From an uncultured delta proteobacterium (lineage in GTDB: Bacteria > Myxococcota_A > Polyangia > Polyangiales > Polyangiaceae): DNA of 64,000 nucleotides. The translations under genes were made by a program, and so were the position numbers. Location of the stretch: the NCBI GenBank assembly GCA_963841435.1, contig CAWJCS010000003.1:704001-768000 (forward strand), in the 5' to 3' direction. Shown in pieces: positions 48,294 through 51,192 of the stretch (the first letter of the stretch is position 1; each line of letters starts with the position of its first letter). The notes beneath the pieces are model-generated. The model was not told the DNA's origin. It saw only the letters and a list, made by a program, of their open reading frames with translations, and did no database searches.

Positions 48294-48395
48294 CCGAAGA
48301 CCAAGAAGCACGGCGTTGACAACAAGCGCGTCGGGCTCCCCGAGATCCACGTCCGTTTCCTGAAGGAGTACCGGCTGTCCAAGGGCAAGCCACCA
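48294..48395 (+). pseudogene. Possible tyrosine integrase relic
   Basis: PKTKKHGVDNKRVGLPEIHVRFLKEYR fits the PKT...R.V.LP...LKEY patch of phage integrases; abuts the att-linked repeat. Confidence 0.4.
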
Positions 48396-48554
48396 AGCCC
48401 CGCGTTAGCGGGGCTTAGTAGTTGCGCGGGGAGGATTTGCTCCGGCGCACCGATGCTGCTCGTTGATTCGCTTCGCGCGACCCCGAGCAACCTCGGTTCC
48501 ACGTTAGGACTAAAATCCTCCCCACAAAACCAAGCCCCGCGTTAGCGGGGCTTA
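48393..48554 (-). repeat. tRNA-linked 137-bp structured repeat unit (48418-48554) plus extra terminator hairpin
   Basis: Near-identical to the units at 50843-51114; hairpin AAGCCCCGC-GTTA-GCGGGGCTT occurs twice. Confidence 0.9.
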
Positions 48555-48557
48555 GTA

Positions 48558-48600
48558 GTTGCGCGGGGAGGATTTGAACCTCCGACCTTCGGGTTATGAG
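48558..48600 (-). mobile_element. attR-like 43-bp duplication of the tRNA-fMet 3' half
   Basis: Identical to 51118-51160; identity stops exactly at the edge of the 7-nt anticodon loop. Confidence 0.88.
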
Positions 48601-48664
48601 GAGGCGGCGACTAGCTTGCTCGGCTTGGTGTGCTTGCAGAACGCGACGATAGCGCGCGGCGATG

Positions 48665-50164
48665 CTACCAGATGCGGAAGTTGCCGCTGACGTGGAGCAT
48701 GCCGAGCATGTAGAGCACCCCGTCCCAGTAGTTGTGGGAGGGGACGCCGGTCGACCAGAGCTTGTCGACGAAGGCTTTGCCCGAGGATGACGGCAAGGCG
48801 AAGCCCAGGGTGGAGTTGCACCCCACCGCTGCGCCGCCGTTGTTACGGGAGCTCGAGTAGGCGCCGAACTTGGGCGCATACGTGTCTTTCTGCCAGGGAT
48901 CTTTGCCGAACAGATACCAGTCCATCATGAGGTTGACGACGCATCGGGTCGAATCGGCATTGGCGCCTTGCGGGTTTGTGGCCGTGAAGCTCGCTTGGTA
49001 GGGACAGACGCCGTTGCTGTCCACCACCTTCTGCATGTAGGCGCGGCCCGCGGTCGCAGATTCCTTCCAGAAGTCCGCGTTCGCGGTGTCGAAGCAGGCC
49101 CACACCTCGTAGAAGGCCGGCAGGACGTACGAAGGATCCACGTTGTTCGAGCTGGAGACGAACTTGACCAGGTGGTATTGCGAGTTGAAGTACTTGGTCC
49201 GTATCACGTCGAGAACCCACTGGGCCTCGGTCGAGTAAGCGATCTTGGCGGTGCCGGTCGAGTCGCCCCAGCGGTGCGCGGCGAAGATGAGGGCGGTCGC
49301 GAAGTACTCCTCGCCGTCCGGCGCTCCACCGCCGGCGCACCCAGAGCCCGAGGTCTGGCACCGCCATCGAATCTCGCCGGTGCCTTGCGCCATGTGGTTC
49401 TTGACCCAGCTCCAGAGACGGTCGAACTCGGTCTGATGGTCGAGCTGAACCGCGACCATCATGCCGTAGGACATGCCTTCGGAGCGCACATCATTGTTGT
49501 AGATGTCCTGGACATACGATTCGTTAGCGCCGGGCCCGTTGAAGTAGATGGTCCCCGAGCCGCTGGGGTTGAAGAGCGAGGACCAGGCGCTGCTGACCTT
49601 CTGGTCGCTCTCCGCCTGGGTGTGACCGGAGACGGTGACGAAGAGATTGGCGTAGCTTGCGGGCGGCGTGCATTCGCCGCCGCTGCCGCCGCTGCCGCCG
49701 CTGCCGCCGCTGCCACCGCTACCGCCGCTGCCGGCGCCACCGGCGCCGGAGCCGCCGTCCGCGCGGCCACCCGAGCCCGCGCCTCCTGCGCCGCCGTTGG
49801 CACCACCCCCGCTTCCGCCCGCGCCGGCTTCGCCCGCGCGCCCGCCCGTGGCAGCGCCACCCGCGACGCCTCCCGCGCCTGCCGTCTGGGACGTCCCCCC
49901 CGAGCCCCCCTGGACCGACGAGCTCCCACCGGTCCCAGCGATCGTGCCACCCGTCCCCGCGCCTACGCCGCCCGTCCCAGCATTCGTGCCGCCGGCTCCG
50001 CTAACGCCGCCCGTCCCGGAGGATGTCGCGCCTGCCTCGGGCAATCCATCTCCACCCCGGCCCCCTGATCCACTTGGACCCAGCTCGCCGCCACTAGTTG
50101 AATCGCAACCCACCAGAAGGACAGCCAACGAAAGAATGGACAAACGAGATGAAACAGTGCGCAA
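48665..50164 (-). CDS. GH8 glycoside hydrolase (xylanase/Rex-like) lipoprotein
   Basis: Lipobox LVGC; DVRSEGMSYGMM, FDRLWSW, APDGEEYFATAL, DPSYVLPAFY, LHVSGNFRIW. Confidence 0.9.
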   Translation of the reverse strand: MRTVSSRLSILSLAVLLVGCDSTSGGELGPSGSGGRGGDGLPEAGATSSGTGGVSGAGGTNAGTGGVGAGTGGTIAGTGGSSSVQGGSGGTSQTAGAGGVAGGAATGGRAGEAGAGGSGGGANGGAGGAGSGGRADGGSGAGGAGSGGSGGSGGSGGSGGSGGECTPPASYANLFVTVSGHTQAESDQKVSSAWSSLFNPSGSGTIYFNGPGANESYVQDIYNNDVRSEGMSYGMMVAVQLDHQTEFDRLWSWVKNHMAQGTGEIRWRCQTSGSGCAGGGAPDGEEYFATALIFAAHRWGDSTGTAKIAYSTEAQWVLDVIRTKYFNSQYHLVKFVSSSNNVDPSYVLPAFYEVWACFDTANADFWKESATAGRAYMQKVVDSNGVCPYQASFTATNPQGANADSTRCVVNLMMDWYLFGKDPWQKDTYAPKFGAYSSSRNNGGAAVGCNSTLGFALPSSSGKAFVDKLWSTGVPSHNYWDGVLYMLGMLHVSGNFRIW

Positions 50165-50308
50165 GGCGAGACTCCTTCCCCAATATAGCAGTTGCCTCGA
50201 ACGAGAGCTGCTGGTTCAATTTTCTTCTATTTCCGTCCGCCTAGCGCACCGGGAGTGAGATGCGATCAAGCATTCGCCGGTGGCTACGGCGGGAACATCG
50301 GGGCGTCG

Positions 50309-50845
50309 CTCGAATTCACGTTTCAGAGCGCTGGAGCCGCGCACTACCTGCGTGACCTCGGGGCGAAGACGCGGCGCGGATAGCGCAGCGCACCTCGCGA
50401 AGGCGGTGATCGCGCACAAGCTCAACGAGGGGGGCGTTCCCGCACCCTGCGGCGCCGGCGCGCCGGGCCTGGTTGGATGCAGTCGTGCATCCGCGAAATG
50501 CTCTCAATCCAAAGGTCGCCCCACGTGGGACGCCGTTCAGTCCCTGCTCGCCGAGCACGCGAAGCAGTACAAGGCGCGCGCCGTTCCGCACGGCACGACG
50601 GACTAACTGGTTACGGGCCTGCTCCGCTGCGGCTGTTGCCGCGCGCCGACGCCAATCATGGGCGGCAGCTCCGACCGTGCCCGCACCGCCCTCCGCAGCT
50701 ATTTCAAGAACGGCACCATCACGATGACGCCGGAGCCGCACGGCGCCGGCATGGCGTACGTCGCACGCGGCGAGTTCATGCCCCTCGCCTTGCTTCACCG
50801 ACACAAGCAGAAACGCCCTCCGAGGGAGGGCGCCGTCCATGTGTA
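50309..50845 (+). pseudogene. Large serine recombinase, internally deleted relic
   Basis: Colinear fragments HYLRDLGAKTRRG (helix E), IAHKLNEGGVPAP and GWMQSCIREML (recombinase domain), TWDAVQ, LVTGLLRCGCC (Zn ribbon), then a C-terminus running into the tRNA-end copy. Confidence 0.75.
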
Positions 50846-51114
50846 GTTGCGCGGGGAGGATTTGCTCCGGCGCACCGATGCTGCTCGTTGATTCGCTTCG
50901 CGCGACCCGAGCAACCTCGGTTCCACGTCAGGACTAAAATCCTCCCCACAAAACCAAGCCCCGCGAAAGCGGGGCTTAGTAGTTGCGCGGGGAGGATTTG
51001 CTCCGGCGCACCGATGCTGCTCGTTGCTTCGCTTCGCGCGACCCGAGCAACCTCGGTTCCACGTCAGGACTAAAATCCTCCCCACAAAACCAAGCCCCGC
51101 GAAAGCGGGGCTTG
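50843..51114 (-). repeat. Two tandem 136-bp tRNA-linked structured repeat units
   Basis: Units start at 50843 and 50979; each has a tRNA 3'-end copy, a long hairpin and a terminator. Confidence 0.93.
51086..51113 (-). terminator. Rho-independent terminator after tRNA
   Basis: - strand AAGCCCCGC-TTTC-GCGGGGCTT-GGTTTT. Confidence 0.75.
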
Positions 51115-51115
51115 G

Positions 51116-51192
51116 TGGTTGCGCGGGGAGGATTTGAACCTCCGACCTTCGGGTTATGAGCCCGACGAGCTACCAGGCTGCTCCACCGCGCG
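51116..51192 (-). tRNA. Initiator tRNA-fMet (CAT), 77 nt
   Basis: CGCGCGGTGGAGCAGCCTGGTAGCTCGTCGGGCTCATAACCCGAAGGTCGGAGGTTCAAATCCTCCCCGCGCAACCA; C1:A72 mismatch, three G:C pairs in the anticodon stem, encoded CCA. Confidence 0.97.

What the first reader, a model, noticed from the sequence alone, without database searches (positions are those of the whole stretch)
48393..51192. Structured 136-bp repeat that regenerates the tRNA-fMet 3' end, present behind both the tRNA and its att copy
Seen: three near-identical units (48418-48554, 50843-50978, 50979-51114). In the tRNA direction each reads: terminator hairpin; GGGGAGGATTT; inner hairpin ACCGAGGTTGCTCG/CGAGCAGCATCGGT with a GCGAAGC mini-hairpin in its loop; AAATCCTCCCCGCGCAAC (copy of the tRNA T-arm and acceptor 3' strand). 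The GGGGAGGATTT arm can pair with the unit's own tRNA-end copy or with the real tRNA 3' end. The units are almost unmutated, while the neighbouring recombinase genes are reduced to scraps. Only the terminator loop (GAAA vs GTTA) and a few bases differ. Inference: a non-autonomous element that targets tRNA 3' ends (MITE/REP-like, moved in trans), a tRNA-cotranscribed structured RNA, or an array of spare att sites. tRNA-linked repeats are known in other bacteria; I do not recognise this unit.
Basis: partly seen in the sequence, partly recalled or inferred. Interest (0 to 1): 0.75.

Follow-up and report, generated by a model that had tools for sequence, protein, structure and literature searches.

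The report
Tandem tRNA-linked repeat behind initiator tRNA
A 136-base structured stretch that follows the initiator tRNA gene, ends in a copy of the tRNA's last 18 bases and is repeated in tandem is built like the 'tRNA-linked repeats' known but unexplained in E. coli since 1978, here in a myxobacterium at a hot spot for integrating elements.

Summary
An initiator-type tRNA-Met (51116-51192, minus strand) is followed by two tandem 136-bp units. A third unit and a truncated fourth follow a 43-nt copy of the tRNA 3' half, 2.5 kb away.

In the tRNA direction each unit reads:
- a terminator-like hairpin;
- a U-rich inverted complement of the tRNA end;
- a second hairpin;
- an exact 18-nt copy of the tRNA 3' end.

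No Rfam family matches. The unit body is absent from the rest of the window and from 108 related loci. Only four Polyangiaceae MAG contigs carry a diverged, single-copy, weakly structured homologue, at the same position.

The layout matches E. coli tRNA-linked repeats (TLRs). I checked this on the tyrT/tyrV 178-bp RtT repeats and the rrnB T1-RrB-T2 region. TLRs carry 18-19 bp of the upstream RNA's 3' end, lie between hairpins and occur 1-5 times per locus.

I read this as a TLR-type local tandem repeat, not an element moved in trans. The array is interrupted by a decayed island carrying a large serine recombinase remnant, whose junction sits on a unit's 18-mer.

Whether read-through RNAs are made and processed, or the 18-mers serve as spare attachment sites, is inferred. 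The rest of the genome could not be searched.

The parts
51116..51192 (-). Initiator-type tRNA-Met(CAT) gene. Its last 18 nt before CA (51118-51135) are the sequence copied in every unit.
   Evidence: ARAGORN. Rfam tRNA 64.5 bits. C1 x A72 and GGG/CCC in the anticodon stem, read from the alignment.
51205..51232 (-). Promoter-like site for the tRNA (TTGACA, 16 nt, TATCTT).
   Evidence: Consensus scan, 10 of 12 matches. The region upstream of the tRNA is partly conserved in Polyangiaceae MAG loci.
50979..51114 (-). Unit 3, directly behind the tRNA: hairpin (TTTC loop), U-rich inverted complement of the tRNA end, second hairpin, 18-mer copy at 50982-50999. The linker after the tRNA is CACC, so CCA is encoded.
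50843..50978 (-). Unit 2, the tandem copy (3 substitutions vs unit 3). Its 18-mer (50846-50863) abuts the recombinase-island junction.
48418..48554 (-). Unit 1 (137 nt, TAAC loop), directly behind the 43-nt att copy. Its 18-mer is at 48421-48438.
48392..48417 (-). Truncated unit 0: linker base, hairpin (TAAC loop) and GGT only, then unrelated flank.
   Evidence: the repeat finder D3, copy 48392-48439. Sequence.
48558..48600 (-). 43-nt direct copy of the tRNA 3' half, from the anticodon loop to the acceptor end. This is the displaced att copy.
   Evidence: 100% over 43 nt to the tRNA. The same boundary (CTCATAACCC...) is seen in 13 other non-redundant contexts of relatives.
48601..48664 (-). 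Far-end arm of an integrated element, with CAAG-spaced repeats (CCAAGCCGAGCAAG).
   Evidence: The same motif type lies next to the att copy in L005, L009, L034, L054 and L101 (by eye).
48665..50164 (-). Glycoside hydrolase family 8 gene with a Gly-rich linker, lying between the two parts of the array. Probable island cargo.
   Evidence: Pfam PF01270, E = 1.2e-17. The catalytic part is 60-64% G+C against 67.7% for the window.
50607..50846 (+). Remnant of a large serine recombinase gene. It matches residues 330-352 and 501-537 of the L059 protein, so about 150 residues are deleted internally. The stop codon overlaps the unit-2 18-mer by one base. The ORF piece 50259-50606 upstream may belong to it but gave no significant match.
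   Evidence: BLASTP, E = 1e-9 and 6e-4. No significant match for the upstream piece. tblastn hits 9 loci beside tRNA-fMet. L059 and L068 proteins carry Resolvase + Recombinase + Zn_ribbon_recom.
50814..50832 (.). Hairpin (CGCCCTCC / GGAGGGCG) between unit 2 and the recombinase remnant. In relatives the homologous hairpin directly follows the tRNA.
   Evidence: Alignment A2 with L023, L040, L094, L059 and L031.

Best explanation
This is a tRNA-linked repeat (TLR) array. A 136-bp piece of the tRNA-fMet 3' trailer is reiterated in place.

Each unit holds a terminator-like hairpin, a U-rich inverted complement of the tRNA end, a second hairpin and an exact copy of the tRNA's last 18 nt.

Shown:
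- The units are local. They are not dispersed in any DNA I could search.
- A diverged single-copy homologue sits at the same place behind tRNA-fMet, or behind its displaced half, on four other Polyangiaceae MAG contigs.
- The layout is that of E. coli TLRs: gene end, hairpin, T-rich inverted complement, body, 18-nt copy, hairpin.

Inferred:
- An old trailer segment bounded by a partial tRNA-end copy was sharpened in this lineage into a near-perfect rod-like structure. That partial copy was probably a scar of integration at this hot spot.
- It was then multiplied by unequal recombination between the 18-mer or 136-bp repeats.
- Close repeats were kept alike by gene conversion.
- The array is now split by a decayed island, either because the island entered at an internal 18-mer junction or because units were copied back next to the tRNA.

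If the first hairpin is read through, each unit would fold into a rod. The rod is closed by an acceptor/T-stem-like helix that ends in the tRNA 3' end. Enzymes that trim tRNA 3' ends could then release RNAs of about 113-136 nt, as described for RtT and RrB in E. coli. No function is demonstrated.
For: Anatomy and repeat counts.

Locality:
- The body 24-mer occurs 3 times in 64 kb, with 0 expected.
- blastn of the unit against 108 loci finds only the tRNA-end part, except 32 nt in L063.
- An nhmmer profile finds only the window (3 copies) plus L044, L056/L057 (one contig), L063 and L071. All are directly behind a tRNA-fMet end.
- Of 62 tRNA-Met(CAT) and 4 other tRNA genes in all held DNA, only the window's has copies of its last 16 nt within 1.5 kb downstream.

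Known kind. PMC8144298 (passages read) states:
- 22 TLRs lie at ten E. coli loci, with 1-5 per locus.
- 18-19 bp of the TLR 3' end are identical to the 3' end of the upstream tRNA or rRNA.
- RrB lies between T1 and T2 and is made by read-through.

Checked here on E. coli:
- tyrV is followed by 3.1 copies of a 178-bp unit, each ending in the tRNA-Tyr end. Each also holds GGGGAAGGAT, the complement of that end.
- At rrnB, the 5S end pairs across T1 with a T-rich inverted complement, and 18 bp of the 5S end recur before T2.
- The number of RtT places per E. coli genome ranges from 1 to 9, median 2, in the 4700 of 5426 genomes that have a match. This fits unequal recombination.

Hints of RNA-level constraint:
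- The sense strand folds at -88 to -89.5 kcal/mol, the antisense at -76 to -83.
- Three G.U pairs lie on the sense strand.
- Of 7 variable positions (6 events) among units, only 1 lies in a robust helix, and it changes C-G to U.G (P of at most 1 in 6 events = 0.028).
Against: - No sequence or structure homology to the E. coli family. Rfam RtT (RF00391) finds 4 copies in E. coli but nothing in the window at E up to 10. The likeness is one of architecture and may be convergent.
- The strong inverted complement is specific to this window: duplex energy -25.0 kcal/mol, against -21.9 for the next best and a median of -15.6 in 75 contexts.
- The four relatives' modules are not significantly structured (z 0.1 to -0.9). 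A conserved RNA function across species is therefore not supported.
- The units next to the tRNA lie between the tRNA and an island junction that directly abuts the tRNA in relatives. Plain tandem duplication does not explain this by itself.
- The variation test rests on 6 events in near-identical copies.
- Nothing shows transcription.
- The rest of the genome was not searchable, so dispersed copies are not excluded.
Confidence: 0.6

Rival explanations
1. An array of attachment-site copies used by integrating elements. Each unit junction (18-mer, linker, hairpin) repeats the DNA at the tRNA 3' end that the large serine recombinase island recognises. The island entered at an internal junction of a once-continuous array (tRNA, u3, u2 | island | u1, u0). 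The tRNA was spared, and units were left on both sides by a single crossover.
For: - The sequence after unit 2's 18-mer is homologous to what directly follows the tRNA in L023, L040, L094 and L059: a hairpin, then the 3' end of the recombinase gene.
- The recombinase ORFs of L059 and L068 run up to and into the tRNA end.
- Both junctions in the window share 18-mer + TAC.
- One crossover inside the 18-mer explains why the left junction has only 18 nt while the right one has 43 nt.
- tRNA-fMet is an integration hot spot in relatives: 15 contexts start at the anticodon loop and 9 are other partial copies, out of 108 non-redundant contexts.
Against: - The 43-nt copy with its sharp boundary at the anticodon loop is the classic mark of a crossover in the anticodon loop, not at the 3' end.
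- No locus I hold shows both ends of a recombinase island, so its crossover point is unknown.
- The far-end arm family may belong to another element.
- Use as an att site would not by itself explain the rod-like structure.
Confidence: 0.3
2. A miniature integrative element (MITE-like or CIME-like): 136 bp flanked by the 18-bp T-loop-to-3'-end att repeat. It would be excised and re-inserted in trans by an integrase that crosses over in the T-loop, so that it regenerates the tRNA end at each insertion.
For: - The unit is bounded by 18-bp direct repeats that begin in the T-loop. The base run before the copy (CCGGAG-C) resembles the T-stem 5' strand with 3 nt missing.
- In L017 a 2.6-kb insert separates the tRNA from a 23-nt tRNA-end fragment that carries the recombinase junction. 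This is the same topology as the two units here.
- The units lie closer to the tRNA than an older island does.
- 11-bp perfect terminal inverted arms are present.
Against: - No copy occurs away from the tRNA-fMet end, in the window or in 108 loci.
- No tyrosine integrase or HUH enzyme appears among 36 of the 74 high-GC3 ORFs of at least 120 aa in the window.
- The homologues in relatives are single, diverged and positionally fixed. This looks like vertical descent.
- A 136-bp circle is very small for a recombinase synapse (established knowledge of DNA stiffness; inference).
Confidence: 0.1
3. A selected small-RNA gene array. The units exist because the read-through RNA has a function of its own, as a regulator or sponge like RrA/B/F. 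The 18-mer serves as its 3' processing signal.
For: - Strong, strand-asymmetric structure.
- The differences between units avoid helices.
- The two T-to-C changes in the tRNA-adjacent linker improve the encoded CCA and the hairpin.
- Precedent in PMC8144298 (passages read).
Against: - The structure is not conserved in the four related modules.
- No expression data exist.
- PMC8144298 itself states that most E. coli TLRs have no known function.
- Near-identity of the copies can come from gene conversion.
Confidence: 0.2
4. Assembly artefact: the tandem copy behind the tRNA is a collapsed or expanded repeat created by the assembler.
For: Tandem repeats of 136 bp at 98% identity are a known difficulty for short-read assembly (general knowledge).
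Against: - Units 2 and 3 differ at 3 positions, and each has its own distinct flank: tRNA with CACC on one side, the recombinase junction on the other.
- A third unit lies 2.4 kb away with further private differences.
Confidence: 0.03

Closest known systems
E. coli tRNA-linked repeats (TLRs). Examples are the 178-bp repeat behind tyrT/tyrV (RtT RNA, rttR; Rfam RF00391) and rrA/rrB/rrF between terminators T1 and T2 of rrnA/B/D. Sources: Egan and Landy 1978 and Rudd 1999, as cited in PMC8144298, of which I read passages.
   Same: - It lies directly 3' of a stable-RNA gene in the same orientation.
- It ends with 18-19 nt identical to that gene's 3' end (18 here).
- It occurs 1-5 times per locus, in tandem at tyrT (2 + 1 + a truncated one here).
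- A hairpin stands before and after the unit.
- An internal inverted complement of the gene's 3' end pairs with that end. I saw this in tyrV and rrnB and in the window.
- Copy number is unstable.
   Different: - There is no detectable sequence or covariance-model similarity.
- The phylum differs (Myxococcota-like, by tRNA and promoter matches to Polyangiaceae MAGs) and so does the tRNA (initiator).
- The period is 136 rather than 178 or 168 bp.
- The closing helix is much stronger: 18 positions of the 18-mer's span, with 1 mismatch and 2 G.U pairs.
- The array is interleaved with island remnants. That is not part of the description of TLRs in the passages I read.
- Transcription is untested here.
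att-site scars and tandem accretion of integrative elements at tRNA genes (CIME-type remnants). This comparison is recalled from the literature on streptococcal ICEs; no paper was read here.
   Same: - Direct repeats of the tRNA 3' end bound the unit.
- The site is a hot spot with nested and tandem islands in relatives.
- L063 holds three tRNA-end fragments in 700 bp with no tRNA on the contig.
   Different: - A scar is not expected to be a near-perfect rod-like fold.
- A scar is not expected to be repeated head to tail at 98% identity.
- A scar is not expected to carry an inverted complement of the tRNA end.
MITEs and REP/REPIN elements
   Same: Small size, terminal inverted arms and a strong hairpin.
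   Different: - No target-site duplication.
- Not dispersed in the DNA searched.
- No cognate transposase or RAYT in the window.
- One arm is simply the tRNA end.

Membership tests
tRNA-linked repeats (TLR), as characterised in PMC8144298 | Located in a tRNA or rRNA operon, immediately downstream of the stable-RNA gene. | tested here: met
   Unit 3 starts 2-3 nt after the tRNA's CCA, on the same strand.
tRNA-linked repeats (TLR), as characterised in PMC8144298 | 18-19 bp at the 3' end of the repeat are identical to the 3' end of the upstream gene. | tested here: met
   18 of 18 identical in all three units. There are 5 exact copies in the window against 0.08 expected.
tRNA-linked repeats (TLR), as characterised in PMC8144298 | One to five repeats per locus. 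| tested here: met
   Two tandem units, one further unit and one truncated unit.
tRNA-linked repeats (TLR), as characterised in PMC8144298 | [quoted passage not shown] | not testable with these tools
   Hairpins flank each unit. The strict terminator scan calls none, which would fit leakiness. No expression data are available.
Rfam RtT RNA (RF00391) | A match to the covariance model at its gathering score. | tested here: not met
   The window region 46000-53000 shows no RtT hit at E up to 10. As a positive control, the E. coli tyrT region gives 4 hits of 133-138 bits.
MITE | Terminal inverted repeats with a target-site duplication, and many dispersed copies. | tested here: not met
   Inverted arms are present (11 bp perfect). 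No duplication flanks them. Copies occur only at tRNA-fMet ends in the window and the 108 loci. The rest of the genome was not searchable.
REP/REPIN with RAYT | Dispersed palindromic units and a RAYT (HUH) gene. | tested here: not met
   No such Pfam family appears among 36 ORFs scanned, taken from 74 high-GC3 ORFs of at least 120 aa. The only transposase found is of the IS66 family, at 35073-36488.
Miniature integrative element (att-flanked, moved in trans) | Flanked by att direct repeats, and shown to excise or to occupy sites polymorphically. | tested here: inconclusive
   The direct repeats are met (18 bp). Mobility cannot be tested. The homologues in 4 relatives are single and fixed at the same site.

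The most novel reading that the evidence does not exclude
The TLR layout is a convergent, functional design, not a scar. A stable-RNA gene is followed by a leaky hairpin and a trailer whose two ends imitate the 5' and 3' strands of the acceptor/T-stem helix. The cell's tRNA-end trimming enzymes therefore cut read-through transcripts into discrete small RNAs. The same repeated DNA offers decoy attachment sites that let integrating elements land behind the tRNA rather than inside it.

Its independent appearance in a myxobacterium and in Enterobacterales would then point to a general, unrecognised class of trailer-encoded RNAs.
Probability: 0.15. Interest if true: 0.65.

Novelty: new member of a known kind. 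Interest (0 to 1): 0.4.

Why it matters
According to the passages I read in PMC8144298, TLRs have been known since 1978 and most still have no known function.

An architecturally matching case in a distant phylum, without sequence homology, says one of two things. Either the layout is produced repeatedly by a common mutational route (duplication or recombination seeded in the last 18 nt of a stable-RNA gene), or it is selected.

This example is unusually clean, and that makes both ideas testable:
- the 18-mer is exact;
- the closing helix is strong;
- three dated layers are present (old unit, island, units next to the tRNA).

It also shows that such repeats can sit inside an integration hot spot and carry an island junction. 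This links two literatures, tRNA-linked repeats and tRNA att sites, that I did not find joined. My searches were the phrase 'tRNA-linked repeats', which returned 2 papers, and 'tRNA-linked', which returned 114 papers of which 25 were listed; apart from PMC8144298 I saw those only as titles and abstract openings, and the titles listed are mostly Entamoeba repeats or unrelated uses.

Tried and rejected
- **blastn of the unit against 108 loci.** It found only the tRNA-end part plus 32 nt in L063.
- **nhmmer profile of the module.** It returned no members beyond those used to build it.
- **Synteny search with the neighbouring histidine kinase, GH5, GH8 and one ORF, and blastn of 40000-58000.** No syntenic relative was found, and the window's own genome is not in the collection.
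- **tblastx of the flanks.** It gave 4466 low-complexity hits and was uninformative.
- **Pfam on the short ORFs at 48060-48545 and 50192-50846.** Nothing passed a curated cut-off. The recombinase identity rests on BLASTP and tblastn to relatives.
- **Alignment of the modules with the proximal arms of another island family.** Similarity is limited to a generic hairpin plus a T-rich tail, so I do not claim homology.
- **Coding potential.** 136 is not a multiple of 3, so the frame shifts by one base per unit. This reading is rejected.
- **Integron attC-like reading.** The ...GCGCAAC / GTTTTGT... ends resemble the core sites only loosely, and no integron integrase was found among the 36 ORFs scanned. 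Rejected.
- **Strict terminator scan.** It called none of the hairpins.
- **Two literature calls failed on term syntax.** One search was not repeated.
- **Bosl and Kersten 1991 (PMC329039).** It is not held.

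
Full report
**1. The observation**

The window holds one tRNA gene, tRNA-Met(CAT), at 51116-51192 on the minus strand (Rfam tRNA 64.5 bits). The C1 x A72 mismatch and the GGG/CCC anticodon stem mark it as an initiator tRNA (read from the alignment; established knowledge). 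A promoter-like TTGACA-16-TATCTT lies at 51232-51205.

Behind the tRNA, Tandem Repeats Finder reports 50843-51136 with period 136, 2.2 copies and 98% matches.

The 18-mer AAATCCTCCCCGCGCAAC runs from the T-loop to the discriminator plus C. It occurs five times exactly in the tRNA direction and three times inverted with 3 mismatches, against 0.08 expected.

Positions 48558-48600 are a 43-nt exact copy of the tRNA from the anticodon loop to the end. A unit follows this copy, and then a truncated unit (linker, hairpin and GGT only).

Units 3 and 2 differ at 3 positions. Unit 1 differs from unit 3 at 6 positions plus one inserted G.

**2. Anatomy in the tRNA direction**

Each unit reads, in order:
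- a linker (CACC after the tRNA, TACT elsewhere);
- a 12-bp G+C-rich hairpin with a tetraloop;
- GGUUUUGUGGGGAGGAUUU, an inverted copy of the 18-mer with 3 changes, two of which still pair as G.U in RNA;
- a spacer;
- a 14-bp hairpin with a small GCGAAGC-type hairpin in its loop;
- GCGCCGGAGC;
- the 18-mer.

The inverted copy can pair backwards with the tRNA end or the preceding 18-mer, enclosing the first hairpin (array fold, z = -8.9). It can also pair forwards with the unit's own 18-mer, making one long rod (-60.6 kcal/mol, z about -6).

In the forward pairing, the 5' arm reads like an acceptor 5' strand fused to the T-stem 5' strand, and the 3' arm is the real T-stem/acceptor 3' strand. 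That is the topology of a tRNA minihelix with a very large loop. This reading is my inference from the sequence.

The sense strand folds better than the antisense (-88 to -89.5 against -76 to -83 kcal/mol). The strict terminator scan does not accept the hairpins as terminators.

No Rfam family matches the units at E up to 10. The period is not a multiple of three, so a repeated peptide is excluded.

**3. Distribution**

- After removing duplicates there are 108 contexts. By my string tests 55 are full tRNA-fMet genes, 15 are copies starting at the anticodon loop, 9 are other partial copies, and 29 are chance hits without tRNA context.
- ARAGORN finds 62 tRNA-Met(CAT) genes in all held DNA.
- Nearly all tRNA contexts are Polyangiaceae or Myxococcota MAGs. 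The window's own genome is not among them, because only the tRNA and its promoter match.

The unit body was found in none of these loci by blastn, apart from 32 nt in L063.

By eye and then by alignment and profile search, four MAG contigs carry a diverged, single-copy module at the same position. These are L044, L071, L056/L057 and L063.
- The module has a hairpin, a T-rich stretch with ...GGGATCGGATT... or ...GTGAGGATTT..., a short G+C hairpin, and a truncated tRNA-end copy (for example CTCCCCGCGCAAC).
- In L063 it has a full 18-mer.
- These modules are not significantly structured (z 0.1 to -0.9).

The strong complement to the tRNA end is peculiar to the window: -25.0 kcal/mol, against -21.9 for the next best and a median of -15.6 in 75 contexts.

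Of all held tRNA genes, only the window's has copies of its 3' end within 1.5 kb.

**4. Surroundings**

Between the two parts of the array lie two features:
- a GH8 gene (48665-50164; Pfam), with lower G+C than the window;
- a remnant of a large serine recombinase gene at 50607-50846.

The remnant matches residues 330-352 and 501-537 of the L059 protein. The L059 and L068 proteins carry Resolvase, Recombinase and Zn-ribbon domains. Their ORFs converge on tRNA-fMet and run into it.

The DNA after unit 2's 18-mer is homologous to what directly follows the tRNA in L023, L040, L094 and L059. So two units stand between the tRNA and an island junction that elsewhere abuts the tRNA.

Next to the 43-nt copy, the island's far end carries CAAG-spaced repeats like those beside the same copy in five other loci.

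The site is a hot spot. Several contigs hold two or three att copies in tandem. L063 holds three tRNA-end fragments within 700 bp and no tRNA on the contig.

**5. Comparison with what is known**

A paper on E. coli rRNA-operon small RNAs (PMC8144298; passages read) describes the family of tRNA-linked repeats:
- 22 repeats at ten loci, one to five per locus;
- first described in 1978;
- the hallmark is that 18-19 bp of their 3' end equal the 3' end of the upstream tRNA or rRNA;
- RrB lies between terminators T1 and T2, is made by read-through of T1, and ends 3 nt after the repeated sequence;
- most TLRs have no known function.

I fetched two E. coli K-12 examples.

Behind tyrV there are 3.1 copies of a 178-bp unit.
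- Each ends in the tRNA-Tyr end.
- Each contains GGGGAAGGAT, the complement of that end, and the two pair in the predicted fold.
- Rfam RtT hits four copies there but none in the window.

At rrnB the 5S end pairs across T1 with a T-rich imperfect complement. A 30-nt segment that includes 18 bp of the 5S end recurs 168 bp later, before T2.

The order gene end, hairpin, T-rich inverted complement, body, 18-nt copy, hairpin is thus shared by all three cases.

In 5426 complete E. coli genomes, the RtT unit is found in 4700. The number of places per genome that has any ranges from 1 to 9, with median 2. Such arrays therefore change copy number readily.

**6. How it most likely works**

Shown:
- It is a local tandem repeat with the defining features of a TLR.
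- An older, poorer version exists at the same site in relatives.
- It is interleaved with island remnants.

Inferred:
- The ancestral trailer already carried a partial tRNA-end copy, probably a scar of recombination at this hot spot.
- In this lineage the region became a near-perfect structure. Extension of the hairpin palindrome by template switching is one known route (recalled, not tested).
- The 18-mer and then the 136-bp homology allowed unequal recombination and gene conversion. These multiplied the unit and kept the copies alike.

The split arrangement has two readings that I cannot separate.
- Either the island entered a continuous array at an internal 18-mer junction. One crossover then explains an 18-nt left junction, a 43-nt right junction and units on both sides.
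- Or the island entered the tRNA, and units were later copied from the far side back next to the tRNA.

For an RNA-level role there are three hints:
- the strand asymmetry;
- three G.U pairs on the sense strand;
- of 6 mutational events among the units, only one lies in a robust helix, and it keeps pairing (P = 0.028 on very few events).

Against a conserved role, the relatives' modules are unstructured.

**7. Verdict**

The mobile-element reading is not supported by anything I could search. The cotranscribed-RNA and spare-att readings remain open.

The thing belongs, by architecture and not by homology, to the known kind 'tRNA-linked repeat'. It is a new member from a distant phylum. It is of moderate interest, mainly because it offers a clean second system for an old, unexplained class of repeats.

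What stayed unchecked:
- the rest of this genome;
- any expression data;
- the original TLR papers (not held).

Noticed in passing
L001-L108, e.g. L005/L098/L106 (one contig), L054/L100, L066/L101, L017/L028, L056/L057: tRNA-fMet is a hot spot for integration in Polyangiaceae MAGs. Many contexts are 43-nt copies that start exactly at the anticodon loop. Several contigs hold two or three such copies in tandem. At least two families of far-end arms and several families of proximal arms occur (GGGCCAC repeats, CCGTTGAC...GGTTGCC, and a recombinase-type hairpin).
   Followed up: partly
L059 4999-6693 (-), L068 4999-6807 (-); window 50844-50846: The large serine recombinase ORFs next to tRNA-fMet have no stop codon until the complement of the tRNA T-loop. 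In the window, the remnant's stop codon overlaps the 18-mer. The attachment site therefore lies at or inside the 3' end of the recombinase gene. This recalls phage Mx8, where attP lies inside int (recalled, not checked).
   Followed up: partly
L063 1455-1492, 2019-2029, 2127-2144: Three tRNA-fMet 3'-end fragments lie in direct orientation within 700 bp of a 2.5-kb contig that has no tRNA gene. The last two bound a module related to the window's unit.
   Followed up: partly
L109 (E. coli K-12, 1285800-1287600) and L110 (4171500-4172300): E. coli TLRs also contain an inverted complement of the upstream RNA's 3' end. At tyrV this is GGGGAAGGAT. At rrnB a T-rich stretch after T1 pairs with the 5S end. 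I do not know whether this has been described, because the original papers were not available.
   Followed up: partly
window 51114-51117 vs 50978-50981, 48554-48557 and 48417-48420: The linker after the real tRNA is CACC, which gives an encoded CCA and a C-G pair in the hairpin. After every 18-mer copy it is TACT, with no CCA and a U.G pair. In relatives most tRNA-fMet genes lack an encoded CCA.
   Followed up: no
window 345-896, 7718-10696, 31082-33667, 46667-48214, 48665-50164: The window is rich in secreted glycoside hydrolases: GH11, two GH3, GH5 and GH8. GH5 and GH8 flank the repeat. Both have Gly/Ser/Ala-rich linkers with short tandem repeats (for example 49675-49762 and 47675-47740) and lower G+C in their catalytic parts.
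   Followed up: no
window 35073-36488 (-): An IS66-family transposase ORF (DDE_Tnp_IS66 plus DUF6444). It is the only transposase seen among the 36 ORFs scanned.
   Followed up: no
window 48141-48392 (+): Short ORF pieces converge on the truncated unit (...VGLPEIHVRFLKEYRLSKGK...) between the GH5 stop codon and the hairpin. No Pfam match was found. They may be the remnant of a still older gene or island.
   Followed up: partly
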